From NCBI GenBank assembly GCA_035711805.1, contig DASTBV010000100.1, forward strand, positions 1,552 to 65,551: 64,000 nt of DNA. Direction: 5' to 3'. The position numbers and the translations under genes were made by a program. The stretch's first letter is position 1; each line of letters opens with the position of its first letter. This document shows positions 6,801 to 26,355 of the stretch, one piece after another. The stretch is from Vicinamibacterales bacterium. Its GTDB lineage: Bacteria > Acidobacteriota > Vicinamibacteria > Vicinamibacterales > UBA2999. The notes below the pieces were generated by a model. The model ran no database searches. It had not been told where the DNA came from and worked only from the letters and a program-made list of their open reading frames with translations.

Positions 6801-6812
6801 TGGGACGTCACC

Positions 6813-7229: not shown

Positions 7230-7282
7230 AGGTCGGCCTCCGGGCGAGATGATAACGCGCGCCGCCAACCCCGGTATGTGCT

Positions 7283-7298
7283 GGTTTCTTGACGAAAC
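7283..7298 (+). promoter_or_regulatory. partial copy of the shared upstream motif (GGTTTCTTGACGAAAC)
   Basis: It lies 43 nt upstream of the histidine-kinase ATG. It matches the core of the 11233 and 26355 copies at 15 of 16 positions and contains the -35-like TTGACG. Confidence 0.45.
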
Positions 7299-7340
7299 TC
7301 CGACAAATCTCCACGTCATCACACAATAGGGCTGCTTATA

Positions 7341-9428
7341 ATGCGCGCCCGACGCCCAGCTATGCACGTGCCCCAATGGCTCCGCCCGCCTCGATTGCTG
7401 CTGCTGGTTTTTGTCGGGACGATGCTGTCGTTTCTCGCCGGGCTGGGCTATTTCGGCTGGCAGTCGATTGAACAGAATCGGGCCTTGCAGGACGACAACG
7501 TGCGCGGAGCGGTCGAGCGGGCGGCAGACCTGATCACATCCGAAATCCGCCAGAAGCTGACCGAATTCGATAACGAGCTGGAACGTCTGGCCGCGGCTCC
7601 CGCCGGCGAACTCGACGCCGCGGCGGCAGCGCTGGGAAAGAAGCTCGGCGACGACGCGCTGCTCGTCGTGTTCGAGGCGGACACCGTTCGCGCCTACCCC
7701 ACGCAGCGGTTGCTGTACCGCCCTGCGGTCGCAGCGCCCGACGAACCGGACCCGCAGGTGTTTGCTCCCGGCGAGGTCTACGAGGAGCAGGGCGAGGATT
7801 ACCCGCGAGCGATCCTGTACTTCCGTGATCTGGCTGACAGCGAAGACTCGCCTGACATTCGCGCCGGCGCCCTCTACCGGCTTGCTCGCAACCAGAAGAA
7901 GCTCGGTCGCCCCACGGATGCTCTGGCGACCTATGCCGAATTGGAGCGCATTCCGTCCGCGTGGGTCGCCGACCGCCCCGCAGATCTCCTTGCGCGATCG
8001 CTTCGAGCGGGCCTGCTCGCGGAACTCGGCCGCCGCGAGGAGCTGCTGGAGGAAGCCCGGCGGCTCGATGTGGACCTGCATAGCGGCCGATGGCCGCTGA
8101 CCCGCCCCCAGTTTCTCGGCTACGCGAACCAGATACAAGAATGGCTCGGCCGCCGCGACCCGGGCCTGCCACCACAGGATCAGCCGGCGATGGCTCTGGC
8201 CACGTCAGTCGAAGACCTGTGGCGCGACTGGCAGCGCGATGCCATCAACCCAACCGGACGCGCCATGTTCATCGCCGAGGGACGTCCGCTGCTTCGTATC
8301 TGGCGGGGAAGAAGCGACCGCTTTCTGGCGCTGGTGGGAGGGGCGACGTTCCTCAAGGATCAACTGATTGACCCGTTGAACGCGATGCTGGACGAGCGCG
8401 AGGTGGGCATCGTGCTCTCGGACCCCGCCACGAAGTTCACCTTGTCGCACGCGCTCCGGACGGCCGGTCCGGCTGGGAGGACCACGCGCGAGCCTTTTCG
8501 GTCCGATCAGTTGATGGATGACACACAGCTGCCGTGGAATCTTCGCGTCATCAGCGCGAGCCCGGGGCCCGATGCCGCGGAATTCGCCAGGAGCCGCCAG
8601 CTCCTGATCGTCGCCATCGCCATTCTCGCGCTCCTGGTGGTGGCCGGCGGCTACTTCAGCGGCCGCGCCATCACGCGCGAGATGGAGGCGGCGCGGCTGC
8701 AATCCGATTTCGTCGCCGCCGTGTCACACGAGTTCCGGACACCGCTCACGCTGCTTCGTCAGTTCTCCGATCTGCTCGCGGACGGGCGCGTTTCGAACGA
8801 CGAGGAACGACACCAGTACTACGCAGCGATCCAACGCGGCACGCGGCGGCTGACGCGGCTCGTCGAAGATCTGCTGGACTTCGGGCGCATGGAGGCGGGG
8901 TCGCATGGATTCCGTTTCGCGAAACTCGACACGCAGGAATGGATCGCCCGCCTTGTCGCCGACTTCAAAGATCAGTTCCGCGGACAGGGATACGAGGTGA
9001 TGCTCGACTGGGCGGTCCCCGAGGGTGCCGTCGTCCACGCCGACGAAGCGGCGATCAGCCGCGCGCTGTGGAACCTGCTGGACAACGCCGTCAAGTATTC
9101 GCCCTCGTCGAAGACGATCTGGATCGGCGGAACGATCGGTGACGGCAAGCTGACGGTCAGCGTGCGCGACCGCGGCATCGGTGTGCCGCATGCAGATCGC
9201 CGCGCCATTTTTCGCAAGTTCGTACGCGGCTCCATGCCGGACGGAAGTGTGGTGAGGGGTACGGGCCTCGGACTCGCCCTCGTCGAACAAATCATGCACG
9301 CCCACGGCGGCGAAGTGCGTCTCGACAGCACCTCGCCGGACGGCAGCACGTTTTCGCTCGTGCTGCCTATCACGGTGCCGGCCAACGCCGTCGCCACTCG
9401 CGCACAGGCGCCGGCCGTTCAGAGGTAA
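7341..9428 (+). CDS. sensor histidine kinase
   Basis: Two TM segments. H-box VSHEFRTPLT, N-box NLLDNAVKYSP, G-box GTGLGLALV. An alternative ATG at 7362 is possible. Confidence 0.9.
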   Translation: MRARRPAMHVPQWLRPPRLLLLVFVGTMLSFLAGLGYFGWQSIEQNRALQDDNVRGAVERAADLITSEIRQKLTEFDNELERLAAAPAGELDAAAAALGKKLGDDALLVVFEADTVRAYPTQRLLYRPAVAAPDEPDPQVFAPGEVYEEQGEDYPRAILYFRDLADSEDSPDIRAGALYRLARNQKKLGRPTDALATYAELERIPSAWVADRPADLLARSLRAGLLAELGRREELLEEARRLDVDLHSGRWPLTRPQFLGYANQIQEWLGRRDPGLPPQDQPAMALATSVEDLWRDWQRDAINPTGRAMFIAEGRPLLRIWRGRSDRFLALVGGATFLKDQLIDPLNAMLDEREVGIVLSDPATKFTLSHALRTAGPAGRTTREPFRSDQLMDDTQLPWNLRVISASPGPDAAEFARSRQLLIVAIAILALLVVAGGYFSGRAITREMEAARLQSDFVAAVSHEFRTPLTLLRQFSDLLADGRVSNDEERHQYYAAIQRGTRRLTRLVEDLLDFGRMEAGSHGFRFAKLDTQEWIARLVADFKDQFRGQGYEVMLDWAVPEGAVVHADEAAISRALWNLLDNAVKYSPSSKTIWIGGTIGDGKLTVSVRDRGIGVPHADRRAIFRKFVRGSMPDGSVVRGTGLGLALVEQIMHAHGGEVRLDSTSPDGSTFSLVLPITVPANAVATRAQAPAVQR

Positions 9429-9431
9429 CGC

Positions 9432-10541
9432 ATGCCTCGCATTCTGATTGTCGAAGACGAGCCTGATATCGCGCTCGGTCTGAAGATTGACCTGACGCAC
9501 GAGGGCTATGACGTCGAGGTGGTCCAGGACGGCGAAGCGGCGCTCGAGCGCGCCGCCCGCGGCTCGCTCGACCTGATCCTCCTCGACGTGATGCTGCCGA
9601 AAAAGGATGGCTTCGCGGTGTGCCGCGAGCTGCGGCGGTGGGACAACCAGACGCCAATCGTGGTGCTGACGGCCCGGGCTCACGAACTGGAAAAGGCCAA
9701 AGGGCTCGAGCTCGGTGCCGACGACTATGTCACCAAGCCGTACAGCCCGGTCGAGCTGCGGGCGCGGATCAAGTCGATCTTCAGGCACCGGAACGCATGG
9801 CTCGGTGACAGCGCCCGTCTCGATCGTGAGCTGCGCACCGCTGCCGACGTGCAGCAGCGGCTGCTTCCGCAAACGCGCCCGGCGATCAGCTCGCTCGATT
9901 ACGTCGGTTATTGTCAGCCGGCGCAGCTCGTCGGCGGCGATTACTACGACTTTCTCGATCTGTCCGACGATCGGCTCGGCCTCGTCGTCGCCGATGTATC
10001 GGGCAAGGGTGCATCCGCAGCCCTGGTCATGGCGTCGCTGCACGGCTGTCTGCGCGCCCACGCCACCGGCGACGGCCGCCAGCTCGATGACATCGTCAAC
10101 GCAGCGAACACACTGCTCCACGCTGCAACCGACGCCAGCCGCTACGCGACACTCTTCTACGGCATGTATTCGGGAGAGTCCCGCGAACTGCTGTACGTGA
10201 ACGCGGGCCATCCGGGAGCGCTCGTCGCGCGCGGCCGCGAGATCCAGCGGCTCGACTCCGATTGCCCGCCGCTCGGCATGTTCGAACACATCGCCGCGGT
10301 CGTCAGACGCGTCGAGCTGCGAGCCGGCGATCGCCTGCTGATCTTCAGCGATGGGTTGTCCGAGGCAGCGGACGCGCAGGGCACAGAGTTTGGCAGCTCG
10401 AACGCAGCGGCGGTGCTGTCGAACGACAGCCTCCAGTCTGCCGAGGCGATCCGCGACGGGCTGCTTCGCGCGCTGAGCGGCCACACGGCGGGATGCCGGC
10501 CGGCAGACGACGTGACGGTGATCAGTGGTGTGGTGCGATAG
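9432..10541 (+). CDS. response regulator with PP2C/SpoIIE-type phosphatase output (REC-PP2C)
   Basis: REC domain (LILLDVMLP, TAR...GADDYVTKP) followed by SpoIIE/RsbU-like blocks GGDYYDF and LVVADVSGKGASAAL. It starts 3 nt after the kinase stop. Confidence 0.9.
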   Translation: MPRILIVEDEPDIALGLKIDLTHEGYDVEVVQDGEAALERAARGSLDLILLDVMLPKKDGFAVCRELRRWDNQTPIVVLTARAHELEKAKGLELGADDYVTKPYSPVELRARIKSIFRHRNAWLGDSARLDRELRTAADVQQRLLPQTRPAISSLDYVGYCQPAQLVGGDYYDFLDLSDDRLGLVVADVSGKGASAALVMASLHGCLRAHATGDGRQLDDIVNAANTLLHAATDASRYATLFYGMYSGESRELLYVNAGHPGALVARGREIQRLDSDCPPLGMFEHIAAVVRRVELRAGDRLLIFSDGLSEAADAQGTEFGSSNAAAVLSNDSLQSAEAIRDGLLRALSGHTAGCRPADDVTVISGVVR

Positions 10542-10550
10542 CGGGGACCT

Positions 10551-11225
10551 ATGAGCCGGATTCTTATTGTCGAAGACGATCCTGACATCGCCCTCGGCCT
10601 GCAGCACGACCTGCGGCTCGAGGGCTATGACGTCGAAGTCGCCGGCGATGGCCAGAAGGCGATCGACCGCGGGGAGACGGGCATTTTCGACCTGATCCTC
10701 CTGGACGTGATGCTGCCGATGAAGGACGGCTTCGAGGTCTGCCGTGAGCTGCGGCGGGCGCGCGTGCGCACGCCGATCATCCTGCTGACGGCGAAGAGCC
10801 ACGAGGCGGAAAAGATACTGGGGCTGGAACTGGGCGCCGACGATTACGTGACCAAGCCGTTCAGCCCGATGGAGCTGCGCGCCCGCATCAAGGCGGCCCT
10901 TCGACGCGGCGCGGGCGAACCGCGGCAGGTCTATGCCTTCGGTGATTTCGAACTGGACTTCGGACGCTTCGAGGTCCGTCGCGGCGGCCGATCGGTCGAT
11001 CTCACGCCGATCGAGTTCAAGCTGCTGGCGACGCTGGTGCAGAACCGCCGGCGCGTCTTGACCCGGCAGCAGCTGCTCGACCAGGTATGGGGCCGGGACG
11101 TCTACGTGACAGATCGCGTCGTGGACACCCATATCGGCAACCTGCGGAAAAAGATCGAAACCGACGCCGAGCAACCCTCGTATCTGGTGAGCGTCCGCGG
11201 CGTGGGCTACCGGTTCGAGGGGTAG
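10551..11225 (+). CDS. OmpR-family DNA-binding response regulator
   Basis: REC domain plus a winged-helix output (LTPIEFKLLATLV, VDTHIGNLRKKIE, VRGVGYRF). Its REC domain is about 70% identical to that of the preceding gene. Confidence 0.9.
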   Translation: MSRILIVEDDPDIALGLQHDLRLEGYDVEVAGDGQKAIDRGETGIFDLILLDVMLPMKDGFEVCRELRRARVRTPIILLTAKSHEAEKILGLELGADDYVTKPFSPMELRARIKAALRRGAGEPRQVYAFGDFELDFGRFEVRRGGRSVDLTPIEFKLLATLVQNRRRVLTRQQLLDQVWGRDVYVTDRVVDTHIGNLRKKIETDAEQPSYLVSVRGVGYRFEG

Positions 11226-11232
11226 ATTTCAT

Positions 11233-11266
11233 CTGTCAAGGTTTCTTGACAAAACCACACGGAATC
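11233..11266 (+). promoter_or_regulatory. shared upstream motif, full copy
   Basis: CTGTCAAGGTTTCTTGACAAAACCACAcggAATC. It contains the palindrome GTCAAG-GTTT-CTTGAC and TTGACA. It lies 95 nt upstream of the DUF1800-fusion ATG. Confidence 0.55.
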
Positions 11267-11360
11267 AGGCCCAAACGCTCATTCGCAGCCCGGGCGACTC
11301 GTTTATGCTGCGCGACAGACTGTTGGGCACCCTCTTTCGGGGGACCAGGAACGCGCAGCC

Positions 11361-14051
11361 ATGACATCAACTCCAACCCGCGCTCTCTTCATCCTGGCGA
11401 TCGTTGCTACGGCGCCGCTCTTCGTCAGCGCACAAAACGCCGACATGCCGGGCCTCCTGCTCGAAGCGGCCATTCAGAAGGAAGTCGCCTCCGGCTGCGC
11501 CACGGCCATCCCGGAGTTCGAAAACCTCTTGACCCGCTTCCCGGATGAACGAGCCGTCGTGCCGCAGGCGCTCTGGCGTCTGGGACAGTGCTACGACCGA
11601 CGGGGTGATTTACGGGCGCGACAGACGTTCGAGCGTCTGGTGCGCGACTATCCCGATCACAAGCTCGCGCAGCGCGCGCGGACGAAGCTCGCGGCGTACT
11701 TCGACGAAGGCAGCGCCGGTCCGTTAGAAGTCGCCGTGCGCGAAGTGTGGACGCGCGCCGACACCACCACGCAGTTCCTGGGCAACAACGGCAACGTCAA
11801 CCCGCGCGTCGTCATCTTCAACGACCTCGCCGTCTACGATGCACAGGCCAACGAGGGAAAAGGCGAGGTCAGGCGTCTCTCGTCGGGCGTGCGCGCGGCC
11901 GCCTATCCGGTCGTGTCGCCAACGGGCCAGGTCGCCTATCTGAGCTGGAGCGGCGACATCAAACAGCGGATCGACAGCCAGCGTGACCGCGGCGCCGGCC
12001 CGCGGCCTGTTACCGAGCTGCGCGTCGTGCGTCAGAACGGCCAGGGCGACCGCGTGCTGATCGCCGACCCGAAACTGCCGTGGCTGCGACCGTACGCATG
12101 GTCACCCGACGGCAAGCACATCCTGTCGGTGTTCGAGCGGAGCGATGGCACGCGGCAGATTGGTCTCGTTGACGAGCGGGATGGCGCGACGCGAGTCCTC
12201 ACGTCGCTGCCCTGGCTCTCGCCGCAAGGCATGGCCTTCTCACCGGACGGCAGCTACATCGCCTACGAGGTAGCGACACCACGAAACTCGCGGCAGCAGG
12301 ACTTCTACATCATGTCCGTCGACGGTGGTTCGTCCACGGTCGAGCGGCGCTACTCACTGAATCTGGCGATGCAGCGCGGGCCGGTCCTCACCGACGACCA
12401 GCTTGCCGTGCATCTGCTGAACCGGATCGGATTCGGGCCGCGGCCAGGCGATATCGAGAGAGTCAAAGCGCTCGGGATTGAGGGCTACCTCGAGCAGCAG
12501 CTCTACCCGGAGCGCCTTCCCGACCCTGTTGTGGACGCGAAGCTCGCCGGGTATACCTCGCTGACGATGGACATCCCGACGCTCTTGACGACCACCGGGC
12601 CGCCCGTGGCCGTTGGCAACAGACGACGGGCCACGATCTTCGATCGGGCAGACATGGCCCGTCAGCTGCCGATGCCCGCGACGCAGATGCCGGGGGACGA
12701 AACACGGGTCTTCCTGCACCCCGATCGCCCACGCGATCTGGAAGCGCACACGGCGCGGCTGATTCGCGGCGTCTTCAGCGAGCGCCAGCTGTTCGAGGTG
12801 GTCGTCGACTTCTGGATGAACCACTTCAACGTCAATCACGGCGATCACCAGCTGACGCCGCATTTCGAGGAGCAGGCGATCCGCAAACACGCCTTCGGAA
12901 AGTTCGAGGATCTGCTCCGCGCGACGGCGATGCACCCGCGGATGCTCTACTACCTCGACAACTGGAAAAGCTCGGCACCGGCGGAGATCGTCCAGAAGCG
13001 GATCGCCGCGCTGAAGGCGTCGTCGCAGGGCGACGCGCTGATTGCGCTGATGGAGCGGTTGCCGTTCCTCGAGGCCAACAAGGGACTGAACGAGAATTTC
13101 GCCCGAGAGCTGCTCGAACTCCACACCGTGGGCGTAGACGGCGGCTACACACAGAACGACGTGATCGAGATCGCGAAGGTGCTCACCGGCTGGACGATCT
13201 CGGGGAAAGGCGTTCCCAACGGACGCGAAGACGACGGCGTGTTCTTCTTCGACCCGCTGATGCACGTCGACGGCAGCAAGACCGTGCTCGGGCAGACGAT
13301 TCCCGGCGGAGGCGTTGACGAAGGCGAGAAGCTGCTGAAGATGCTCGCGACGCACCGCTCGACCGCGCGTTTCCTGTCAACGAAGCTGGCGCGCAGGTTC
13401 ATTGCCGACGAACCGCCGCAGGCGGTCATCGATGCCGCGGCACGAACGTTCGAGAAGACCGGCGGGGACATCCGGGAGGTGCTGCGGACGATTCTGACGT
13501 CACCGCACTTTCGTTCGCCCGATGCCTATCAGGCGAAGATCAAGAAACCGATCGAGCTGGTGTTCAGTTCGCTCCGCGCCGTGGGGGCTGATTTCCGCGA
13601 CCCGCTCTTTGCCGGCGCCGGTGGCCCGGTGCGAATTTCGGGCAACCAGAGCATCCTCGGCCGAATGGGCGAGCGCGTGTATGACTACCAGGCGCCTGAC
13701 GGCAACCCGGATGTCGGGCCTGCCTGGATCAACTCGAATGCGCTCCTTGCACGGCTCGATTTCGCCAACCGCCTGGCCACCGGCAAGCTGCCGGAGGTGC
13801 AGATGAACCTGCAATCAGCGCAGCGGCTCCTCGAGCAGATGGGCGTCACGCGGCCGACGCCTGCGCAGATCGAACAGACGCGCGCGATGCTGCAGGCGGC
13901 GGCAGCGGCGGATGCCGCGCGCACGACGAGTACACAGACCTCGATGATGATGGCCGGCGGCAGCACCGCCGCGGCAAAGACGGCGCCGATCGATGCGACT
14001 GCCGTCGCAGTAGCGGCAATGCTGGGTTCGCCCCAGTTCCAGAAGCGATAA
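11361..14051 (+). CDS. TPR + TolB-like (PD40) beta-propeller fused to a DUF1800 domain
   Basis: Signal peptide. TPR-like ALWRLGQCYDRRGDLRARQTFERLVRDYP. PD40 repeats VVSPTGQVAYLS, YAWSPDGKHILSV and MAFSPDGSYIAYEV. From about residue 340 come DUF1800 hallmarks: LLNRIGFGPRPGD, DFWMNHFNV, LELHTVGVDGGYTQNDVIEIAKVLTGW. Confidence 0.85.
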   Translation: MTSTPTRALFILAIVATAPLFVSAQNADMPGLLLEAAIQKEVASGCATAIPEFENLLTRFPDERAVVPQALWRLGQCYDRRGDLRARQTFERLVRDYPDHKLAQRARTKLAAYFDEGSAGPLEVAVREVWTRADTTTQFLGNNGNVNPRVVIFNDLAVYDAQANEGKGEVRRLSSGVRAAAYPVVSPTGQVAYLSWSGDIKQRIDSQRDRGAGPRPVTELRVVRQNGQGDRVLIADPKLPWLRPYAWSPDGKHILSVFERSDGTRQIGLVDERDGATRVLTSLPWLSPQGMAFSPDGSYIAYEVATPRNSRQQDFYIMSVDGGSSTVERRYSLNLAMQRGPVLTDDQLAVHLLNRIGFGPRPGDIERVKALGIEGYLEQQLYPERLPDPVVDAKLAGYTSLTMDIPTLLTTTGPPVAVGNRRRATIFDRADMARQLPMPATQMPGDETRVFLHPDRPRDLEAHTARLIRGVFSERQLFEVVVDFWMNHFNVNHGDHQLTPHFEEQAIRKHAFGKFEDLLRATAMHPRMLYYLDNWKSSAPAEIVQKRIAALKASSQGDALIALMERLPFLEANKGLNENFARELLELHTVGVDGGYTQNDVIEIAKVLTGWTISGKGVPNGREDDGVFFFDPLMHVDGSKTVLGQTIPGGGVDEGEKLLKMLATHRSTARFLSTKLARRFIADEPPQAVIDAAARTFEKTGGDIREVLRTILTSPHFRSPDAYQAKIKKPIELVFSSLRAVGADFRDPLFAGAGGPVRISGNQSILGRMGERVYDYQAPDGNPDVGPAWINSNALLARLDFANRLATGKLPEVQMNLQSAQRLLEQMGVTRPTPAQIEQTRAMLQAAAAADAARTTSTQTSMMMAGGSTAAAKTAPIDATAVAVAAMLGSPQFQKR

Positions 14052-14061
14052 GAAGGAGCGC

Positions 14062-15282: not shown

Positions 15283-15294
15283 TCGGAGCGAATC

Positions 15295-15750
15295 ATGAGG
15301 ATCGTCAGCACCCTGATCGTTGCCGCCGCCCTTGCCGCCGCGTTTCCACACGAAGCCCGGGCAGACGAGTTACCGCTTGGCAACTGGAACGGCTTCGCCG
15401 TTCGGTTGAACACGGGTAATCAGAATCGTCAGCCTCGTGTTCTGGTCGTCAGGAAGGTCGCGGACCCGCATGTCGCCTGGCGCGGCGGCAGCGGTGAGCT
15501 GCTCAGCGTGAGCTTCGGACAAAATCAGAACAACATGAACGAGGTGAGTGCGATTGCCCTCGCCGACGGGCGTTTGACGTTCACAGTACCCGTGGGCGAC
15601 CAGGTCCTGACGTGCATGCTCGTGCATCAGCCAAAGGAAAACGCGTATGTGGGCGACTGTTCCGGCGCGAACGACTTTCGCGTGACGCTGAACCCCCCGC
15701 CGCCTCCGGCACCGACGCCCGCCGCGGCCACACCGGCAGAGGCAAAATAG
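15295..15750 (+). CDS. hypothetical secreted protein with Pro/Ala-rich C-terminus
   Basis: Signal peptide MRIVSTLIVAAALAAAFPHEARA. It starts 12 nt after the DUF1501 gene. No family recognised. Confidence 0.6.
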   Translation: MRIVSTLIVAAALAAAFPHEARADELPLGNWNGFAVRLNTGNQNRQPRVLVVRKVADPHVAWRGGSGELLSVSFGQNQNNMNEVSAIALADGRLTFTVPVGDQVLTCMLVHQPKENAYVGDCSGANDFRVTLNPPPPPAPTPAAATPAEAK

Positions 15751-15774
15751 CCGCATCGCGAAACGGGGCGCTGC

Positions 15775-19836: not shown

Positions 19837-21074
19837 GACCGCTCCGCCTCGACAATCCGGCTGAAGCCGGACTCCACGGGGAGTCCGCCTTCAGGCGGAT
19901 ATCCAGCAGCGACGCGCGACTGCTGGACGAACGCGCGCCACGTTTCGAACGCGCTCGGACAGCGTCCGAGCCAGAGGACGACGATGAAGGTCAGCGCGCT
20001 GATGCCGTTGATGAGCAGCGAATCCAGGAGCGCGACGCTCGTGCCCGCGAGGAACCCTTCGTCGAACACACGGAACATCGCCACGGAGACGACTTCGTAA
20101 ATGCCGATGCTCGCGAACGTAAACGGCAGCACACGCGTCGTGGCCGCAACGGCGATCGCGATTGCAAAGTGGACGAACGGCAGGTCTTTCATGAGGATGT
20201 AGTCGTCGAGCGGGGACGAAAACGCCTGCTTGATGCACCAGTACGCGAGCGTCTCCACCGCAAGCGCCACTACCGAGAGGATCGTCAGCCCGGCCAGCAA
20301 CCCCGGCGTGGCGGAAAACCGCCGCAGCGCCGCTGCGACCTCGCGGCCATTGAACACGCGCCACAGGTAACGAACAGGGCTTCCCGCGGGCGACGCGGCA
20401 TCACCAAGGGGCCGCGTCAAGGACACGACCGCGGCAACCAGAACCAGTGCGAGGCACAGCGGCCACACCGCTCCTTCCCAGCCGAGATACAGCACGCCGG
20501 CAGCCAGCACCAGCACGATGGCCATGAGTTCGAACAGACGGTTATGAAACACGACGGTTGCGGCAGTGTCCGGCGAAACGCCTCCGTCCGTCAGCGCCTG
20601 AGCCGACCCGAGCTCACCCGGTCCGAATGGAAAGAACAGGTTCAAGCCGCGGCCAAAGAAGTAGCCGACGATTGGGCCGCGCGACGGCTGGCCATGAAAG
20701 TGGCGCGCGAGAAAACGCTGGCGGATGCCGCGCAGAAGCAGCGAGACCAGCGCGAACACGATGGCGAGCACGAACGCGGAGCCGCCGAACCGGCGATCGG
20801 ACACGCCGATCAGATCGAGATCGACGTTGAGCCACCCGTCGCCGACATCGGCCACCTTCACGATGCCGAGATCCGCGAGCTCGTCCAGAATGCGGAAGTT
20901 GGCGGCCATCTCCAGCACGCCCGCGCGGAACGCCTGGCCATCCCACGGTGATGGGCCGTCCGCATCCGGCACGAGGATGGTGAAGACAAAGACCATCAGC
21001 AGGATCGCGAACGCGTACGACCAGGCGATGGAGACGCCCAGGTATGTCCCGCCAGTCGAACCTTGGTTGCTCAT
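19833..21074 (-). CDS. polytopic membrane protein, possibly UPF0104/LPG-synthase-TM (flippase-like) family
   Basis: ATG at 21074 (MSNQGSTGG...) inside track ORF 19833..21260. About 8 hydrophobic segments. The family assignment is from general resemblance only. It starts 2 nt after the upstream stop and overlaps the downstream start by 4 nt. Confidence 0.7.
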   Translation of the reverse strand: MSNQGSTGGTYLGVSIAWSYAFAILLMVFVFTILVPDADGPSPWDGQAFRAGVLEMAANFRILDELADLGIVKVADVGDGWLNVDLDLIGVSDRRFGGSAFVLAIVFALVSLLLRGIRQRFLARHFHGQPSRGPIVGYFFGRGLNLFFPFGPGELGSAQALTDGGVSPDTAATVVFHNRLFELMAIVLVLAAGVLYLGWEGAVWPLCLALVLVAAVVSLTRPLGDAASPAGSPVRYLWRVFNGREVAAALRRFSATPGLLAGLTILSVVALAVETLAYWCIKQAFSSPLDDYILMKDLPFVHFAIAIAVAATTRVLPFTFASIGIYEVVSVAMFRVFDEGFLAGTSVALLDSLLINGISALTFIVVLWLGRCPSAFETWRAFVQQSRVAAGYPPEGGLPVESGFSRIVEAERS

Positions 21075-21076
21075 GT

Positions 21077-23890
21077 TTACCGCCCCTTCGCCTGCGCGTC
21101 GTCGAACCACGGCAGCTCGCTGCCGCGCTGCTCGTCCGCCTCGGAGACGCCAAGCTGCCGCAGGGCACTCGCCAGCGTCGTTCCCATCGCCGTGCGGTTG
21201 CGATAGACAACGGACACGAGCTTGATCTGCGGCAGCTCGTTCTGCAGCGACGTGACCCACAGCGGCTCGATGTAGAGCACGTCGCCGCCGACCGGCAGCA
21301 GCAGCGTGTGCCCACGGACAACCTCGGACCCATGCCGAACCCAGAGCGTGATCTGCTGGTTCACCTGGGCGTCGTCATCGATCAGCGTGTCCGCCTGTTC
21401 CGGTCCGGTCAGGAAGACGCCCTGAGGGATGCGCAGATTCAACAGCCGTCCGTACTGACCGCGGTCCTGCAGCGCCACGACCAGCGAACGAAGATTGCGC
21501 GCACCTTCGGGAGTGAACGGCATCACCGTGGCGTACTGGAGCGCACCTGGCGGGCCGAGCCCGGCTGCCGCGGGCACGTCGGCCGGATCGAGCAGCATCT
21601 GATAACCCTCGTACGAAAAGGTCATCTGATCGCCCGTCCCGAACTCGACGAGACCGCGTCCGATGGAGCCGATGACCTCGTCGGCGTCGTCCCACAGGTC
21701 CTCGGCGTTGTAGAACTCGATCGGGTGTGTCTGGTGATACCGCTTGTAGATGTCGTCGAATTGGATGTGGAACCACTGCAACGGATACGTCAGCTGATCT
21801 TCGACCGCTGACGGCATCGCCGAGGCGGCTTCGAACAGTCCGGGATAGACGCGCGCCCAGGCGGCGACAATGGGATCGTCGCGCAGCTGATAGAAATGAA
21901 GCGCCCCTGTATACGCGTCCATCGTGACCTTGACGGAATCTTCCGCGTAGTTGACCCGCCGTTCCGGGAACGTCTCGACCGCGCGCTCGTCCGCCTTGTC
22001 GCCCAGCTGTTCGTGGAACGAGTACGGGTAGGCATCGCTGGTCGTCAGCGCGTTCACCATCCACAGCACCTGGCGGTCCGCCGCAAACGCGAAGACGTTG
22101 CTGTCGAGAAAGAGGAAAGGCGCCACCGTCGAGACCCGCTGCATCGGCGTGCGGAAGACGTGCGCGTGGCTCGTTCGGTAGTCGATGAAGGTCGAGAAGA
22201 GGAACTCGTTCACGTCTCCCGTGTAGAGCGCAAGCACGATGCGCTTGAACCACGAGTCGACGGCAATGCCGGTCTGCTGCGGCGGGTCGTACACGGACTC
22301 ACTGCGGAACTGCGTGGTGGCGTAATCGAGCTCGCGCAGGTGGCGCACGCCGGTCAGAATGTAATCGTCTTTCGCACCCTCGCCGAAGTAGATCCGCGGC
22401 TCGACGTCGAAGGCCGAATGGGTCGACTGCGGCGGCACACTCGCCGACGCGTAGGCCGGCCCGCCTTCCGCACGCATCTCGTTGACCGGGCTCATCACCA
22501 GCCCCAGGCCATGCGTGAGCATCATCGCCGCGCTGCCCCAGTGTGAGAGCCACTGTTTGGGGCCGGCGAATCCGCGTGAGGGCAGCTCGCGCACCGCGCT
22601 GACGAACATCTGCTTCCTGCCGTCCAGCGCATAACGAACGTTGTCCACGGAAATGAACTTGTAGTAGGGGCGCAGTTGCTGCTCCTGCTCGAACACCTGC
22701 AGCATCGGCCCGTACACCATGGTCGATTCACTCGTGCGGATTCGCTCGAAGTGCTGGATGTCCGGAGGCTCCTCGAGCGAGCTGACCCAGCCGGGGAGCA
22801 GCGGCGCGTTGCGCACCGTCGCGCTGGCCATCAGCCGCTCGACACTCAGCGGCCTCTCCGGCGGCCGCCAGTCGACGGTCTCGATCCGATCGAGCCGATA
22901 GCCGCGAGTCGTCGCCGCAATGTGGCGCGCGATATAGGGCACCTGAATAGTCGGTTCGTTCGGGGCGACGAAGACGTGGGTTCGGACAGTGACCGCCAGA
23001 AAGAATGTGAGGTCGACGGCCAGCAGCGTGGCGATGGCGCCGGCGATCGGGCGAACATGAAGACGGCCGGACAGGTGGTAGCGGGCGATCTGCTGCAGGG
23101 CGTAGCCGCCGATGCCCATGATGGCCAGTTCAACGACCGTCGAGGTGTAGATGAAGTTCAACGTCGAAAACAACCCCTCGACGTCGACGTACGACGCACC
23201 GGTCCGAACGCCCGTCAGTCCGTTGTCCTTGACCAGCAGCGCGTAACGCGCAAGGAACGTCTGCGCCACCAGCGACAAGCCGACAACGGTCAGCGCACCG
23301 TTGACCCAGCCGGTGACGAGACGCGTCAGCCTCGACAGCGCGGGTGCTTCTCGATCGGCGAACACGCCGCGTGATTGCAGTTCGTCGAACCTGCCGATGA
23401 GGGCTCCAATACACGCCACGATCCCCCACCATAGAATCGCCAGCCGCGTCGTCTGCACGGCTGGCATGACGAAGACGTAGAAGCCCACGTCCTTGCCGAA
23501 TACCGGATCGACCTCGCCGAACGATCCGCCGTGCCAGGCGAGCAGGTAGTCCTGATAGCGGTCGGCCCACAACCATCCGGCGAACAGGCCTATCCAGATT
23601 CCTGCGTGAAGCGCTCCGCGCCGAAGCGATGGAGATACGGCGTAGGTGCGGAGGGGCCAAACGAACCCCGTGGCGAAGACGATGACGCCGAGGGCGAACA
23701 AGGCCGCCTGGGCCGAAAAGTTCGTCCAGAAGACGGCAGCATGACCGACGCCGTCCATGAACCAGTAGCGGACGATCAGCGGCGGCACAGCGGCAGCGAG
23801 CAGCCACAGGCCCGCGACGTTGATCCAGAAGCGGAGCGAGCGCCACACCCGGTGCGGCGCCGGCACGATCGGCATGTGCGAAGGGGTCAT
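21077..23890 (-). CDS. UPF0182-family large polytopic membrane protein (paralogue B)
   Basis: 937 aa. It has the same architecture as 16813..19836, with long near-identical blocks such as NAPLLPGWVSSLEEPPDIQHFERIRTSESTMVYGP. It starts 8 nt after the RTX-protein stop. Confidence 0.85.
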   Translation of the reverse strand: MTPSHMPIVPAPHRVWRSLRFWINVAGLWLLAAAVPPLIVRYWFMDGVGHAAVFWTNFSAQAALFALGVIVFATGFVWPLRTYAVSPSLRRGALHAGIWIGLFAGWLWADRYQDYLLAWHGGSFGEVDPVFGKDVGFYVFVMPAVQTTRLAILWWGIVACIGALIGRFDELQSRGVFADREAPALSRLTRLVTGWVNGALTVVGLSLVAQTFLARYALLVKDNGLTGVRTGASYVDVEGLFSTLNFIYTSTVVELAIMGIGGYALQQIARYHLSGRLHVRPIAGAIATLLAVDLTFFLAVTVRTHVFVAPNEPTIQVPYIARHIAATTRGYRLDRIETVDWRPPERPLSVERLMASATVRNAPLLPGWVSSLEEPPDIQHFERIRTSESTMVYGPMLQVFEQEQQLRPYYKFISVDNVRYALDGRKQMFVSAVRELPSRGFAGPKQWLSHWGSAAMMLTHGLGLVMSPVNEMRAEGGPAYASASVPPQSTHSAFDVEPRIYFGEGAKDDYILTGVRHLRELDYATTQFRSESVYDPPQQTGIAVDSWFKRIVLALYTGDVNEFLFSTFIDYRTSHAHVFRTPMQRVSTVAPFLFLDSNVFAFAADRQVLWMVNALTTSDAYPYSFHEQLGDKADERAVETFPERRVNYAEDSVKVTMDAYTGALHFYQLRDDPIVAAWARVYPGLFEAASAMPSAVEDQLTYPLQWFHIQFDDIYKRYHQTHPIEFYNAEDLWDDADEVIGSIGRGLVEFGTGDQMTFSYEGYQMLLDPADVPAAAGLGPPGALQYATVMPFTPEGARNLRSLVVALQDRGQYGRLLNLRIPQGVFLTGPEQADTLIDDDAQVNQQITLWVRHGSEVVRGHTLLLPVGGDVLYIEPLWVTSLQNELPQIKLVSVVYRNRTAMGTTLASALRQLGVSEADEQRGSELPWFDDAQAKGR

Positions 23891-23898
23891 TGGCTTTG

Positions 23899-26259
23899 TC
23901 AGCGCGTCGGCACCACGGGGAGCGCCGCTCGCGCACCAGGTGCTGTTCGAATGGCTGTGACGGCTACTTGCTGATCGCTCGTTGCCGCGATCGTCCCCTG
24001 CAGCGTCTGCACCTTGGCGTTCGGGAACAGGTCGTCGAACGTTCTCACCACCTGGCCGTTCGCCGGCACGCGAATCTGCGCGGCCCCGCCCGGCACCGGC
24101 GCACCCGCCTGATCGTGCAGGGCGACCTGGACGCTCGCCGCCTGTCCACTCGACGTCACGGCCAGTTCGGTGGCGATGCCAGCCGCACGGTCACGCACCA
24201 CGGCGGCGACGAAGGCGGTCGCCGGCGTCGCCGCCGGGGTGTCCACAACCGAGGCACCACTAACGACTCGCAGCACAGCGCCGACGTTCCCCTCGTTCGC
24301 TTCGACGTGCGCAAAACCGGTCTGAACCGGGCCTCCAGCCACTGTCGTGAGGACCAGGGTTGCTAACGGTGCAAGGTCGAATGGCGTCGTCGGCGCTGCC
24401 GGCTGCTTGTTGAGCGAGATCGGCCACGGGCGGCCCTGTTGATCCGCCAATGCCACCGTGCCGCGCGCACGGGCCGTGAAGGATGGATTCATCAGGATCA
24501 GACTCGAGCCGGAATCCCCGCCAGCAGTCACCGAACTGAACACGATCGGACCGCCCGCCACGCCGGGCGTGATACGCACCGCAGGTGTCGCTGTCACGAC
24601 GGTCCCGCGGCGCTGCAACGCCACGATGGCAAGGGGACCGCCCTCCTGCGGCCGGTCGCTGCCGACTTCGACGGTGAGCGCCCCCTGGAAGTCACCGAGG
24701 CGCGGAAACAGCTCACGAACCCACACGGTTCGCTGGGCGTAGGGCGCCAGCTCCACGGTGGCGCTGCAACACTCCAATTCGGCGCCGACGGCACTCCGTA
24801 CCGTCAGCTTGACGCGGCTGCGGAGAAGGCTGTTCGTGATGAGGACGCCGCTGCCGCCGGTCGCATCGTCGTTGACCGGCACGATTGCGCCATCCAGCAA
24901 GGCAGACTCAGAGGCGCCGAATGTGCCCAATGCCGCCGACGACGTCCGCGCGGTGAGGCCGAGCGGTACACTCGAAAACAGCTGCGCGGACGCGACGATC
25001 GCCGCTTCCGGCGCAAAGGTCTCGATGACCACTGCGCCCAGCGGCGGAACGCTGAAGGCTCCGGCCTTGAGCGCCTCCGCCCGTGGCGTCACACGCGCAC
25101 CATCCTCGCCGTAGAACACGAGCCGGCCGCTACTCGCTTCCGTTGCAGACGGATTGACGAGCAGGAAGGATGTGGAGCGCGTGGGATCGAGGCCGACGTG
25201 CGGGACAACGTGCGTGTGCTGGACGCGCTCGACGTTGGCGGCGAGGTATGTGCCGGATGTCAGCGGATCCATGAAACGTCCCGGCGCGAGGTCGCGCGGC
25301 GTGAAGCCGCTTAACGTGAGCAGATCCTCGCCCGGTCCGCCGTCCACGATTTCCGTGCCATCGCGGACAACATCGCCGGTTCGAATCACGATGATGTCGT
25401 CGCCGTCGCCGCCGTTTACGACATCCGTGCCGGCGCCGCCGAGCAGCAGGTCGGCGCCGCTGCCGCCGTTGACGAAATCGCGGCCATCGCCGCCGAACAG
25501 CGTGTCCTGATCGTTTCCGCCATCGACGAAGTCGCCGCCGGCGCTGCCCGTCAGAGTGTCGTTGCCAGGCCCGCCTTTGAGCGTGTCGTCGCCCTGACCG
25601 CCATCGATGGTGTCGTCGCCGGCCTCACCGAGGGCCGTGTCATCGCCGTCCCCGCCGGCGATGATGTCGTTGCCGGCACCGCCGGCGATCGAATCGATCC
25701 CGTCGTTGCCGGACAGCCGGTCGTTGTCGGCGCCGCCGGACAGTGAATCGTCTCCGTCGCCGCCGGCGAGCACGTCGTTGCCGGCGGCGCCGCGGAGCAC
25801 GTCAGTGCCGTCACCACCGTCGGCATCGTCAACACCGGGCCCGCCCTCGATCACATCGTCGTCGTCGTTGCCTTCGATCGTGTCGTTGCCGTCGCCGCCG
25901 CGAAGCGTATCGTTCCCAGCGCCGCCATCGATAATGTCGTTTTCGGCGCCACCGTCGACGGTGTCCTCGCCCTCGCCGGCGTCGATTACGTCTCGACCTC
26001 TCCCCCCGGCGATGATGTCCTGCCCCTTCCGGCCGAAGATCCAATCCTCAGCGTCGGTACCGGTCAGGCGGTCGTCTTCGTCCTTGCCTTCAATGACGTT
26101 CTTGGGGCCGGATCCGCGACCCGCTTCGGCAACGGCGTCCGGACGTGGCTTCCCCTGGGCACCTTCCTGCGCCGTCGGCCACTCGGGAACGAACACGACG
26201 CCGAAGATCAGTGCGGCAGCGGCCACCGCATCGCGAGCCGTGAGGTGTAGTTGGATCAT
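23899..26259 (-). CDS. Ca-binding RTX (hemolysin-type GGxGxD nonapeptide) repeat protein with N-terminal signal/anchor and four C-terminal beta-sandwich-like repeats
   Basis: ATG at 26259 (MIQLHLTARDAVAAAALIFGVVFV). About 25 consecutive GGxGxDx(L/I/F)x nonapeptides occupy residues ~62-307. Four ~100-aa repeats follow, each opening with a hydrophobic-x-NPS/NS strand: FLLVNPSATE, VLITNSLLRS, LILMNPSFTA, ELAVTSSGQA. Confidence 0.85.
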   Translation of the reverse strand: MIQLHLTARDAVAAAALIFGVVFVPEWPTAQEGAQGKPRPDAVAEAGRGSGPKNVIEGKDEDDRLTGTDAEDWIFGRKGQDIIAGGRGRDVIDAGEGEDTVDGGAENDIIDGGAGNDTLRGGDGNDTIEGNDDDDVIEGGPGVDDADGGDGTDVLRGAAGNDVLAGGDGDDSLSGGADNDRLSGNDGIDSIAGGAGNDIIAGGDGDDTALGEAGDDTIDGGQGDDTLKGGPGNDTLTGSAGGDFVDGGNDQDTLFGGDGRDFVNGGSGADLLLGGAGTDVVNGGDGDDIIVIRTGDVVRDGTEIVDGGPGEDLLTLSGFTPRDLAPGRFMDPLTSGTYLAANVERVQHTHVVPHVGLDPTRSTSFLLVNPSATEASSGRLVFYGEDGARVTPRAEALKAGAFSVPPLGAVVIETFAPEAAIVASAQLFSSVPLGLTARTSSAALGTFGASESALLDGAIVPVNDDATGGSGVLITNSLLRSRVKLTVRSAVGAELECCSATVELAPYAQRTVWVRELFPRLGDFQGALTVEVGSDRPQEGGPLAIVALQRRGTVVTATPAVRITPGVAGGPIVFSSVTAGGDSGSSLILMNPSFTARARGTVALADQQGRPWPISLNKQPAAPTTPFDLAPLATLVLTTVAGGPVQTGFAHVEANEGNVGAVLRVVSGASVVDTPAATPATAFVAAVVRDRAAGIATELAVTSSGQAASVQVALHDQAGAPVPGGAAQIRVPANGQVVRTFDDLFPNAKVQTLQGTIAATSDQQVAVTAIRTAPGARAALPVVPTR
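25340..26080 (-). repeat. coding tandem repeats (27-nt period) encoding the RTX nonapeptides
   Basis: Repeated GGCGGCGACGGCGACGAC-like codon blocks on the minus strand. Coordinates are approximate and derived from residue numbers. Confidence 0.7.
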
Positions 26260-26321
26260 GACGCGTCTCTGACCGCGCACATTAGTGGTAGCGTGTCGGC
26301 CCGCCTTGCGAATCACGCGCG

Positions 26322-26355
26322 GATTGTATGTGGTTTTGTCAAGAAACCTTGACAG
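26322..26355 (-). promoter_or_regulatory. shared upstream motif, full copy
   Basis: The reverse strand reads CTGTCAAGGTTTCTTGACAAAACCACAtacAATC. 27 of 27 nt are identical to the 11233 copy. It lies 63 nt upstream of the RTX-protein ATG and overlaps the last codons and stop of the hydrolase gene. Confidence 0.55.

What the first reader, a model, noticed from the sequence alone, without database searches (positions are those of the whole stretch)
7283..26355. A 27-nt identical motif (core GGTTTCTTGACRAAAC) lies upstream of three operons, including the two-component system
Copy 1 is 11233..11266 on the + strand: CTGTCAAGGTTTCTTGACAAAACCACAcggAATC. Copy 2 is 26355..26322 on the - strand: CTGTCAAGGTTTCTTGACAAAACCACAtacAATC. 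They are identical over 27 consecutive nt plus the final AATC. Each points towards the first gene of an operon. Copy 1 lies 95 nt upstream of the TPR/TolB-DUF1800 gene. Copy 2 lies 63 nt upstream of the RTX-UPF0182 operon. A partial copy, GGTTTCTTGACGAAAC (7283..7298), lies 43 nt upstream of the histidine-kinase gene. The motif contains the palindrome GTCAAG-GTTT-CTTGAC and a TTGACA hexamer. However, no TATAAT-like -10 element sits at 17 nt, so it is not a plain sigma70 promoter. The two full copies bracket a ~15-kb block made of two convergent operons. A simple hypothesis is that this is the operator of the adjacent OmpR-type regulator (10551..11225). That would define an autoregulated regulon: the two-component system, the DUF1800/DUF1501 operon and the RTX/UPF0182 operon. 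Copy 2 also encodes the last residues (PVKVS-stop) of the upstream hydrolase. That fits a constrained DNA or RNA element, or a small inserted element.
Basis: partly seen in the sequence, partly recalled or inferred. Interest (0 to 1): 0.65.

Follow-up and report, generated by a model that had tools for sequence, protein, structure and literature searches.

The report
Response-regulator operator shared by three promoters
The repeated motif is the core of a conserved 34-bp docking site, most likely for the neighbouring two-component response regulator, which ties the sensor genes and two operons of uncharacterised envelope proteins into one small regulon in soil Acidobacteria; the mechanism is ordinary and the regulon is new.

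Summary
GGTTTCTTGACRAAAC occurs three times in the window and nowhere else in the 5.9-Mb genome.

It is the core of a 34-bp block. Across 18 orthologous sites in eight genomes or metagenome contigs of Vicinamibacterales, that block alone is conserved. It lies at three promoters:
- the histidine kinase/OmpR operon, shared with a divergent small secreted-protein gene;
- the DUF1800-DUF1501-ArsB-like operon;
- the (RTX)-UPF0182-LPG_synthase_TM-UPF0182 operon.

A -10-like hexamer follows at a fixed distance: TATAAT at +48 to +54, or TAnnnT at +58 to +60. No -35 is present. The regulator's recognition helix is nearly invariant in all orthologues.

Paralogous kinase-regulator cassettes carry TGAC repeats at an exact 11-bp period in the same two places, and each cassette's two sites co-vary.

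The best reading is the operator of the adjacent OmpR/PhoB-family regulator, acting as an upstream activator site (confidence about 0.8).

It is not a dispersed repeat, an RNA element or a plain sigma-70 promoter. The whole 19.6-kb module is absent from a close congener. This is a new member of a known kind, of moderate interest.

The parts
7276..7310 (+). Operator A (finding's copy 3): ATGTGCTGGTTTC-TTGACGAAAC-TCCGACAAATC. It lies in the divergent region between the small secreted-protein gene and the histidine kinase gene.
   Evidence: It is conserved in 7 of 7 orthologous modules. A PWM built only from paralogous cassettes in other genomes ranks it 24th of about 1.2e7 genome positions.
7337..7342 (+). 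TATAAT, the candidate -10 of the kinase operon promoter, 48 nt after the first T of TTGAC. No -35 is present.
   Evidence: TATAAT is present at +48 to +54 in all 7 orthologues. The sigma-70 consensus scan finds no -35/-10 pair.
6813..7229 (-). Small secreted protein gene (138 aa) transcribed divergently from operator A. It is a possible fourth regulon member.
   Evidence: It is called at this position in conspecific contigs. It is 46% identical to the gene at the same position in L154, L156 and L158.
7362..9428 (+). Histidine kinase: about 440-aa N-terminal sensor region, then HisKA and HATPase_c. The longest ORF starts at ATG 7341, inside the TATAAT. The likely start is 7362 or 7377.
   Evidence: Pfam. 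Homology with the G015 kinase begins at residue 8. Both ATGs are conserved in G015.
9432..10541 (+). Second response regulator: receiver plus PP2C/SpoIIE phosphatase, with no DNA-binding domain. It is absent from the G122 and G330 modules, which keep the operator.
   Evidence: Its receiver is 74-77% nt-identical to that of the OmpR-type gene.
10551..11225 (+). OmpR/PhoB-family response regulator (receiver plus Trans_reg_C winged helix). This is the proposed binder of the operators.
   Evidence: Pfam. Closest solved relatives are MtrA, RegX3, BaeR and KdpE. The recognition helix VTDRVVDTH(I/V)GNLR(K/R)KIE is nearly invariant in 7 orthologues.
11233..11267 (+). Operator B (finding's copy 1): CTGTCAAGGTTTC-TTGACAAAAC-CACACGGAATC. 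It starts 8 nt after the regulator's stop codon and lies upstream of the DUF1800 operon.
   Evidence: Conserved in 8 of 8 orthologous modules.
11304..11309 (+). TATGCT, the candidate -10 of the DUF1800 operon promoter, at +58 from TTGAC.
   Evidence: A TAnnnT hexamer (TATGCT, TAGGCT, TAGTCT or TAGGAT) lies at +58 to +60 in 8 of 8 orthologues, while the sequence between is not conserved.
11361..17031 (+). Target operon 1: TPR/beta-propeller-DUF1800 fusion (11361-14051), DUF1501 (14062-15282), hypothetical protein (15295-15750), ArsB/CitMHS-like permease (15775-17031).
   Evidence: Pfam. The gene order is conserved in all orthologous modules.
26321..26355 (-). Operator C (finding's copy 2): CTGTCAAGGTTTC-TTGACAAAAC-CACATACAATC. 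It overlaps the last 5 codons and the stop of the upstream hydrolase gene. It marks the right edge of the 19.6-kb module.
   Evidence: Equivalent sites lie before the RTX-like gene in G122 and directly before UPF0182 in G330. Junction with G008.
26279..26284 (-). TAATGT, the candidate -10 of the RTX/UPF0182 operon promoter, at +58 from TTGAC.
   Evidence: TAGCGT (G122) and TACGCT (G330) lie at the same +58.
16813..26259 (-). Target operon 2: RTX-repeat protein (23899-26259), UPF0182 (21077-23890), LPG_synthase_TM protein (19833-21260), UPF0182 (16813-19836).
   Evidence: Pfam. UPF0182-LPG_synthase_TM-UPF0182 is conserved in the orthologous modules, and an RTX-like gene is also present in G122.
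6757..26372 (.). The 19.6-kb module holding all three operators, the two-component system and both target operons. The congener G008 has 71 nt in its place.
   Evidence: blastn of G008 contig C304 against the window: 91-94% identical flanks end at 6756 and 26373. Junction alignments.

Best explanation
The motif is the core of a 34-bp operator for the OmpR/PhoB-family response regulator encoded at 10551-11225. The operator has three helically phased units: TGTCAAGGTTTC, TTGACRAAAC and CACACGGAATC. Each is a 5-nt specific part followed by a G-W-W-W tract, and the tracts repeat every 11 bp. It lies upstream of three promoters that have a -10-like hexamer but no -35. When the kinase phosphorylates the regulator, the regulator is inferred to bind these units in tandem. 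It would then recruit RNA polymerase from an upstream position, at about -72 to -39 at the kinase promoter and -82 to -49 at the other two. This would switch on its own operon (positive autoregulation), probably the divergent small secreted-protein gene, the DUF1800/DUF1501/ArsB-like operon and the RTX/UPF0182/LPG_synthase_TM operon. Shown: uniqueness of the motif, its position, sharply bounded conservation, co-conservation with the regulator, and phased repeats in paralogues. Inferred: binding by this regulator, activation rather than repression, and the exact assignment of half-sites.
For: (1) There are only three copies in 5.9 Mb, all in this locus.
(2) Eighteen orthologous sites from W, G015, G077, G122, G330, L154, L156 and L158 align without gaps. 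Information content is high only from -12 to +21 relative to TTGAC and about 0.2 bit in the flanks. A/T tracts recur at -5 to -3, +6 to +8 and +17 to +19.
(3) The -10-like hexamers keep their distance while the sequence between them and the operator drifts. TATAAT lies at +48 to +54 in 7 of 7 kinase promoters. TAnnnT lies at +58 to +60 in 8 of 8 DUF1800 promoters and at +58 in 3 of 3 RTX/UPF0182 promoters.
(4) The regulator is the only protein in the module with a DNA-binding domain. Its recognition helix is nearly invariant in 7 orthologues and differs from that of paralogues.
(5) In 30-odd paralogous kinase-regulator-TPR/propeller cassettes, both the kinase-upstream and regulator-downstream regions carry nTGACn repeats. 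The TGAC-to-TGAC distance of exactly 11 bp occurs 18 times against 0.07 expected. TAnnnT lies exactly 48 nt after the first unit in 13 of 34 sites.
(6) The two sites of one cassette resemble each other more than sites of other cassettes, 7.5 against 5.8 of 14 variable positions; 0 of 5000 permutations reached this.
(7) A PWM built only from those foreign paralogues ranks operator A 24th of about 1.2e7 positions in this genome.
(8) The G122 and G330 modules lack the PP2C regulator but keep the operator.
Against: The half-site parse is uncertain. Operators B and C score poorly with the paralogue PWM (ranks of about 360-770), because their second unit is CACAC rather than TGAC and lies 10 nt away. 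The block also contains an inverted repeat, TGTCAAG-N4-CTTGACA. Its conservation is asymmetric, which argues against symmetric recognition but does not exclude it. A 34-bp footprint is longer than one regulator dimer needs, so a second factor could share it. The operator-to-TATAAT distance at the kinase promoter varies by 6 nt among orthologues (48-54), which is loose for strict face-of-helix activation.
Confidence: 0.8

Rival explanations
1. The block is the binding site of another transcription factor encoded elsewhere in the genome, such as a global regulator, and only happens to sit next to the two-component system.
For: Binding was not tested. The block contains an inverted repeat (TGTCAAG-N4-CTTGACA) of the kind used by many dimeric helix-turn-helix regulators. 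At 34 bp it is long for one response-regulator dimer.
Against: The site occurs only inside the module. It travels with the module through different genomic neighbourhoods and GTDB families. It is missing together with the module in G008. A factor encoded elsewhere would have to be co-transferred or universally present with just three targets. The conservation pattern across the palindrome is asymmetric. Paralogous cassettes each have their own variant at the same two places, tracking their own regulator.
Confidence: 0.1
2. The block is itself a core promoter element: the TTGACA is a sigma-70 -35 box, or the block is the recognition element of an alternative (for example ECF) sigma factor.
For: TTGACA is a perfect -35 consensus. 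U2 contains GGAATC, which resembles an ECF-type -35 (GGAAC). This resemblance is from my own knowledge and was not tested.
Against: There is no -10 at 16-18 nt in any copy, and the consensus scan finds no promoter. The TTGAC itself is replaced by TTGTA, TTGGA, TTGAT, TTGCA, TTCAC or CCGAC in orthologues, while TGT, G and TCTTG upstream of it stay fixed. Conserved -10-like hexamers lie 43-55 nt beyond TTGAC. No sigma factor gene belongs to the module. Nothing conserved follows GGAATC at 16-17 nt.
Confidence: 0.05
3. The block is a small mobile or recombination-related repeat, or a structured RNA (terminator or leader), whose copies mark the ends of a 15-kb invertible or inserted segment.
For: Copies B and C are inverted repeats 15 kb apart. 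Copy C lies exactly at the edge of a 19.6-kb insertion/deletion relative to G008 and overlaps the end of a gene. A 7-bp hairpin can form.
Against: There are only three copies in the genome. No transposase or recombinase is present. Ten conspecific contigs from different soils show one orientation only. In G330 the genes and sites are all co-directional. The indel ends do not coincide with B, and its left end has no copy. Fold energies are not better than shuffles (z -0.9, -0.1, 0.0) and there is no Rfam match. The hairpin's right arm is not conserved in orthologues.
Confidence: 0.03

Closest known systems
OmpR/PhoB-family response-regulator operators (E. coli Pho box CTGTCAT-AAAA-CTGTCAC; OmpR F/C boxes). 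Recalled from established knowledge, not fetched here.
   Same: The adjacent regulator has a receiver plus Trans_reg_C winged helix. The units are about 11 bp, each a 5-7-nt specific part plus an A/T tract, and they are helically phased. The first unit, CTGTCAA, even resembles the Pho-box heptamer. The promoters lack a -35 and keep a -10. The system regulates its own operon.
   Different: There are three units of unequal sequence (TGTCA, TTGAC, CACAC) rather than two near-identical repeats. The operator ends 26-37 nt upstream of the -10 instead of about 10 nt, so it does not replace the -35 as a Pho box does. In that respect it is closer to OmpR-type or class I upstream positioning. The kinase is not PhoR-like, and no pst or pho genes are in the regulon.
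MtrA, RegX3 and PhoP of Actinobacteria (closest solved structures: 2gwr, 2oqr, 3r0j)
   Same: They give the best sequence matches to the regulator (E 2e-56, 5e-53 and 3e-44). MtrA is reported to recognise a GTCACAgcg motif (cited in PMC2945938). That is the same GTCAC/TGAC-type word found in the paralogue family here.
   Different: The phylum differs (Acidobacteriota, Vicinamibacterales). The kinase sensor differs. The targets differ: DUF1800/DUF1501 and UPF0182/LPG_synthase_TM rather than dnaA, cell-wall or phosphate genes. The recognition helix has its own signature, HIGNLR.
Paralogous kinase-OmpR-TPR/beta-propeller cassettes of Vicinamibacterales
   Same: The kinase is homologous over its full length (32-52% identity) and the regulator is 55-70% identical. 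The downstream gene is homologous to the N-terminal 300 aa of the DUF1800 fusion. Operators sit at the same two places, and the -10 follows at a fixed distance.
   Different: The paralogues use clean nTGAC(A/C)(C/G)AA(A/T)C repeats at an exact 11-bp period, or TCAC/TCGAC variants that track their recognition helix. They have a -10 at +48. They have no PP2C regulator, no DUF1800 fusion and no UPF0182 operon.

Membership tests
OmpR/PhoB-family response-regulator operator | A cognate regulator with a receiver and a winged-helix (Trans_reg_C) domain is encoded next to the sites | tested here: met
   Pfam: Response_reg 1.1e-28 and Trans_reg_C 1e-28 for 10551-11225. PDB relatives are MtrA, RegX3, BaeR and KdpE.
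OmpR/PhoB-family response-regulator operator | The site is built of two or more units phased at 10-11 bp | tested here: met
   In orthologues, conserved G-W-W-W tracts lie at -6 to -3, +5 to +8 and +16 to +19. In paralogues, the TGAC-TGAC distance of 11 bp occurs 18 times against 0.07 expected. The identity of the specific half-sites in operators B and C remains uncertain.
OmpR/PhoB-family response-regulator operator | A site upstream of the regulator's own operon (autoregulation) and of linked target operons | tested here: met
   Operator A lies 52-86 nt upstream of the kinase start. Operators B and C lie 94 and 62 nt upstream of the first genes of the two operons.
OmpR/PhoB-family response-regulator operator | The site co-occurs and co-varies with the regulator across genomes | tested here: met
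   The block is present in all 8 orthologous modules and absent where the module is absent. The recognition helix is nearly invariant in orthologues. Within-cassette covariation is seen in paralogues; 0 of 5000 permutations matched it.
OmpR/PhoB-family response-regulator operator | Direct, phosphorylation-enhanced binding of the regulator to the site | not testable with these tools
   This needs EMSA, footprinting or DAP-seq.
Pho box / Pho regulon (PhoR-PhoB) | The box lies about 10 bp upstream of the -10 and replaces the -35; the kinase is PhoR-type; pst/pho genes are targets | tested here: not met
   The operator ends 26 nt (A) or 36-37 nt (B, C) upstream of the -10 candidates. The kinase has a 440-aa N-terminal sensor without PhoR features. 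No pst or pho genes are in the module.
Canonical sigma-70 promoter | -35 and -10 hexamers separated by 16-18 nt | tested here: not met
   The consensus scan of 7100-11500 gives 0 hits. No TAnnnT lies 16-18 nt after TTGACA in any copy.
Dispersed intergenic repeat (REP/MITE-like) | Many copies scattered through the genome irrespective of gene starts | tested here: not met
   There are three copies in 5.89 Mb, all promoter-proximal in one module. One-mismatch hits in 80 relatives are as frequent as hits of the reversed control pattern.
Structured RNA element (Rfam family, terminator) | A stable or covarying secondary structure, or a match to a known model | tested here: not met
   Fold z-scores are -0.93, -0.13 and 0.00. 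There are no Rfam hits in 6500-27500. The terminator scan is at background level.

The most novel reading that the evidence does not exclude
The 19.6-kb unit is a self-contained, horizontally mobile or readily lost regulon of Vicinamibacterales. In it, one kinase-regulator pair with a private 34-bp operator co-controls DUF1800/DUF1501, an ArsB-like permease, two UPF0182 proteins and an LPG_synthase_TM protein. That would be the first regulatory, and therefore functional, link between these uncharacterised envelope families. It would also be one branch of a large undescribed family of kinase-regulator-TPR/propeller cassettes, with up to six per genome, that keep their signalling apart through co-evolving recognition helices and operator variants.
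Probability: 0.45. Interest if true: 0.55.

Novelty: new member of a known kind. Interest (0 to 1): 0.4.

Why it matters
The mechanism is textbook: a response regulator with phased binding sites that activates its own operon and neighbouring operons. Three things have some value.

- It gives a concrete, testable regulon for an uncultured soil Acidobacteria lineage in which almost no regulation is known.
- It links protein families of unknown function (DUF1800, DUF1501, UPF0182, an LPG_synthase_TM protein and a small secreted protein) into one co-regulated set conserved across families. This is a useful lead to what they do.
- The paralogous cassettes are a natural series for studying how response regulators and their operators diverge to avoid cross-talk. 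They have clean 11-bp TGAC repeats and a -10 exactly 48 nt downstream.

Tried and rejected
- **Whole-promoter duplication of B and C.** I asked whether the regions flanking copies B and C are diverged duplicates. They are not: alignments beyond the block are no better than shuffles (z 1.3 and 0.2).
- **Copy C as a recent species-specific duplicate.** I first thought so, because the RTX gene is absent from 80 relatives. I dropped the idea after finding equivalent sites before an RTX-like gene in G122 and before UPF0182 in G330. Identity between W and G330 at that site (29 of 34) is nearly as high as B to C within W (31 of 34).
- **Extra regulon members.** Genome scans with relaxed patterns and with the paralogue PWM gave no further convincing site.
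- **Exact 48-nt spacing rule.** It holds in paralogues but only loosely in orthologous kinase promoters (48-54).
- **Collection scans.** The search for related loci on genome contigs with the kinase returned only unrelated Verrucomicrobiota kinases. On metagenome contigs it picked generic receiver patterns, so it gave paralogues rather than orthologues.
- **Literature.** Searches found nothing on DUF1800/DUF1501 regulation or on this cassette.
- **Indel polarity.** Whether the 19.6-kb difference is an insertion in W or a loss in G008 could not be settled. G015 shares the left junction, yet G008 has an intact hydrolase stop and an MBL ribosome-binding site with no counterpart in W.
Full report
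**Observation**

The 16-mer GGTTTCTTGACRAAAC is at 7283-7298 (+), 11240-11255 (+) and 26333-26348 (-). Shuffles of the window give 0.02 matches on average. Copies at 11233-11266 and 26355-26322 are identical over 27 nt plus AATC. The window is C100:1552-65551 of a 5.89-Mb, 65.6%-GC assembly. In that whole genome these are the only matches with up to 1 mismatch, and the 27-mer has no other match with up to 6 mismatches. It is therefore not a dispersed repeat.

In 80 related genomes, one-mismatch hits outside orthologous loci number 6. The reversed control pattern also gives 6.

**Genes**

Pfam assigns the following.
- Plus strand: histidine kinase (HisKA, HATPase_c; a long N-terminal sensor); a receiver-PP2C/SpoIIE regulator; an OmpR-type regulator (Response_reg plus Trans_reg_C); a TPR/beta-propeller-DUF1800 fusion; DUF1501; a hypothetical protein; an ArsB/CitMHS-like permease.
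- Minus strand, convergent: an RTX-repeat protein; UPF0182; an LPG_synthase_TM protein; UPF0182.

The ORF upstream of copy 2 is an alpha/beta hydrolase. Its TGA stop is the TGA of TTGAC.

Names attached to homologues place the lineage in Acidobacteriota, order Vicinamibacterales. Conspecific contigs come from Chinese farmland and forest soils and from JGI samples. They keep all three copies unchanged.

**Orthologous modules**

The same gene set was found in:
- G015, same genus, a frameshift-ridden assembly;
- G077;
- three metagenome or MAG contigs, L154, L156 and L158;
- G122, same family but another genus, and G330, another family.

The gene set is the small secreted protein gene, then divergently kinase-(PP2C regulator)-OmpR-DUF1800 fusion-DUF1501-hypothetical-ArsB-like, plus UPF0182-LPG_synthase_TM-UPF0182. 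The flanking genes differ between these genomes.

I anchored 18 sites on the first T of TTGAC and aligned them without gaps. Information content is about 0.2 bit per column upstream of -13 and downstream of +22. It is high inside:
- TGT at -12 to -10 (1.7 bit);
- G at -6 (2.0);
- TC at -2 and -1 (2.0);
- TTG at 0 to +2 (1.5-1.7);
- AA at +6 and +7 (1.2-1.3);
- AA at +17 and +18 (1.2-1.5).

The conserved unit is thus a 34-bp block that reads TGTCAAGGTTTC / TTGACRAAAC / CACACGGAATC. It has three units whose G-W-W-W tracts recur every 11 bp. The finding's 'partial' copy is a full-length version of this block.

The block occupies three places:
- type A, between the small secreted-protein gene and the kinase, in 7 genomes;
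- type B, right after the OmpR gene and before the DUF1800 gene, in 8 genomes;
- type C, before the RTX-like gene (W, G122) or directly before UPF0182 (G330).

**Promoter architecture**

None of the copies has a -10 at 16-18 nt from TTGACA, and the consensus scan finds no sigma-70 promoter. Instead:
- a perfect TATAAT lies at +48 to +54 in all 7 type-A sites (7337-7342 in the window);
- TAnnnT (TATGCT, TAGGCT, TAGTCT or TAGGAT) lies at +58 to +60 in all 8 type-B sites (11304-11309);
- TAnnnT lies at +58 in all 3 type-C sites (26284-26279).

The sequence between the block and the hexamer is not conserved, and no -35-like hexamer is present. If those hexamers are the -10 elements, the operator spans about -72 to -39 at the kinase promoter and about -82 to -49 at the other two. 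That is an upstream activator position. It resembles OmpR or class I sites more than a Pho box, which replaces the -35.

The longest kinase ORF starts at an ATG inside the TATAAT (7341). Homology and conservation point to 7362 or 7377 as the real start.

**Link to the regulator**

The OmpR-type protein is the only one in the module with a DNA-binding domain. Its recognition helix VTDRVVDTH(I/V)GNLR(K/R)KIE is nearly invariant in seven orthologues. G122 and G330 lack the PP2C regulator but keep the operator. Its closest solved relatives are MtrA, RegX3, BaeR, KdpE and M. tuberculosis PhoP. MtrA is reported to recognise GTCACAgcg (PMC2945938).

**Independent support from paralogues**

The kinase belongs to a family of kinase-OmpR-TPR/propeller cassettes. 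The family is present in many genomes of the order, with up to six copies in G067. The third gene is homologous to the N-terminal 300 residues of the DUF1800 fusion.

- In these cassettes the regions upstream of the kinase and downstream of the regulator carry nTGAC(A/C/G) repeats. TGAC-to-TGAC distances of exactly 11 bp occur 18 times against 0.07 expected from shuffles. The repeats are mostly in the gene's orientation.
- The unit consensus is (C/G/T)TGAC(A/C/G)(C/G)AA(n)C.
- TAnnnT starts exactly 48 nt after the first unit in 13 of 34 sites, and at 59-60 in 6 more.
- The two sites of one cassette agree at 7.5 of 14 non-core positions, against 5.8 for sites of different cassettes. None of 5000 permutations reached this.
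- Cassettes whose helix reads DRAVD(T/A)HIVNLRRK use TCAC units. Those with GDRVVDTH(I/V)LNLRKK use TCGAC units.
- A PWM built only from these foreign sites ranks operator A 24th among about 1.2e7 positions of this genome. Operators B and C rank only about 360-770, because their second unit is CACAC at a 10-nt distance.

**Rivals**

- RNA: the 7-bp hairpin of copies B and C folds no better than shuffles (z -0.93, -0.13; copy A 0.00). There is no Rfam hit in 6500-27500. The hairpin's right arm is not conserved in orthologues.
- Mobile or recombination repeat: the genome has only three copies, and no recombinase is present. Ten conspecific contigs show one orientation, and G330 has a co-directional arrangement.
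- Recent duplication: the flanks of B and C are unrelated. Identity between families at type C (29 of 34, W against G330) is almost as high as B against C within W (31 of 34). Selection on a long operator therefore suffices to explain the similarity.
- Another factor, or a sigma element: not excluded by experiment, but hard to reconcile with the module-bound distribution and with the replaceable TTGAC.

**Context**

In the congener G008, cyclase, hydrolase and the MBL-fold gene are adjacent. The flanks are 91-94% identical to the window. Positions 6757-26372, that is the whole module with all three operators, are replaced by 71 nt. The right end of this difference is the outer edge of operator C. 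The G008 hydrolase ends ...FLDE*. The window's hydrolase reads on through the operator (...FLAE-PVKVS*) and stops at the TGA of TTGAC.

G015 shares the left junction. GC content is flat across the region. Whether this is an insertion or a loss is open. Either way, the module behaves as a self-contained accessory unit. Only 2 of 401 sampled genomes of the order had the PP2C-regulator orthologue.

Overlap of an operator with the end of the upstream gene is common in the paralogues, where the regulator's own TGA stop often lies inside a TGAC unit.

**Limits**

The records behind the metagenome loci are not held, so type-C sites are known from only three genomes. The division of the block into half-sites, and activation rather than repression, are inferences.

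**Verdict**

This is a new member of a known kind, with a newly defined regulon of uncharacterised envelope proteins. Interest is moderate.

Noticed in passing
window 6757-26372; G008 contig C304 (L153): The whole 19.6-kb module is replaced by 71 nt in a congener whose flanks are 91-94% identical. Both flanking genes have remodelled ends: the hydrolase C-terminus and the MBL signal peptide. Whether this is an insertion or a loss is unresolved.
   Followed up: partly
L036-L049, L062-L080 (related genomes and metagenomes): There is a large, apparently undescribed family of kinase-OmpR-TPR/beta-propeller cassettes, with up to six copies in one genome (G067). They have clean 11-bp TGAC repeat operators and a -10 exactly 48 nt after the first unit. 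Operator variants (TGAC, TCAC, TCGAC) track recognition-helix variants.
   Followed up: partly
L044, L046, L047, L048, L064, L067, L069, L080 (regulator 3' ends): In many paralogous cassettes the regulator gene runs into its own operator, and its TGA stop codon lies inside a TGAC unit. The hydrolase stop sits inside operator C in the window in the same way.
   Followed up: no
window 9421-9776 versus 10540-10895: The receiver domains of the PP2C regulator and the OmpR-type regulator are 74-77% identical at the DNA level, which indicates a tandem duplication. The PP2C regulator is absent from the G122 and G330 modules, so it is a later addition to the module.
   Followed up: partly
window 7337-7343: The longest kinase ORF starts at an ATG that overlaps the conserved TATAAT (TATAATG). 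The conserved in-frame ATGs at 7362 and 7377 are more likely starts, and they would leave a very short leader without an obvious Shine-Dalgarno sequence.
   Followed up: partly
window 6813-7229 (-): A small secreted protein of 138 aa with no Pfam match is conserved (46% identity) and is always divergent from the kinase across the orthologous modules. It shares operator A's intergenic region.
   Followed up: partly
L170 3419-5917 (G122) versus window 23899-26259: An RTX-like protein (38% identity over residues 72-805) precedes UPF0182 in G122 too. The RTX gene is therefore an old but patchy member of the operon: it is absent from G330 and from 80 closer relatives.
   Followed up: partly
L156 17863-19388: In one orthologous module, a propeller-protein gene and a ParE-toxin pair are inserted between the ArsB-like gene and the UPF0182 gene.
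   Followed up: no
L012/L013 (G015:C20): The G015 assembly carries many frameshifts in this locus: the kinase, regulators and DUF1800 are split over frames. Its UPF0182 paralogue is cut at about residue 285 and abuts a GH106-like fragment, which may be a misassembly or a rearrangement.
   Followed up: no
genome G000, e.g. C90:14028, C172:1214, C24:8482: Several other positions in the genome score higher than operator A with the paralogue TGAC-N7-TGAC PWM. They may be sites of other OmpR-family regulators or chance matches.
   Followed up: no
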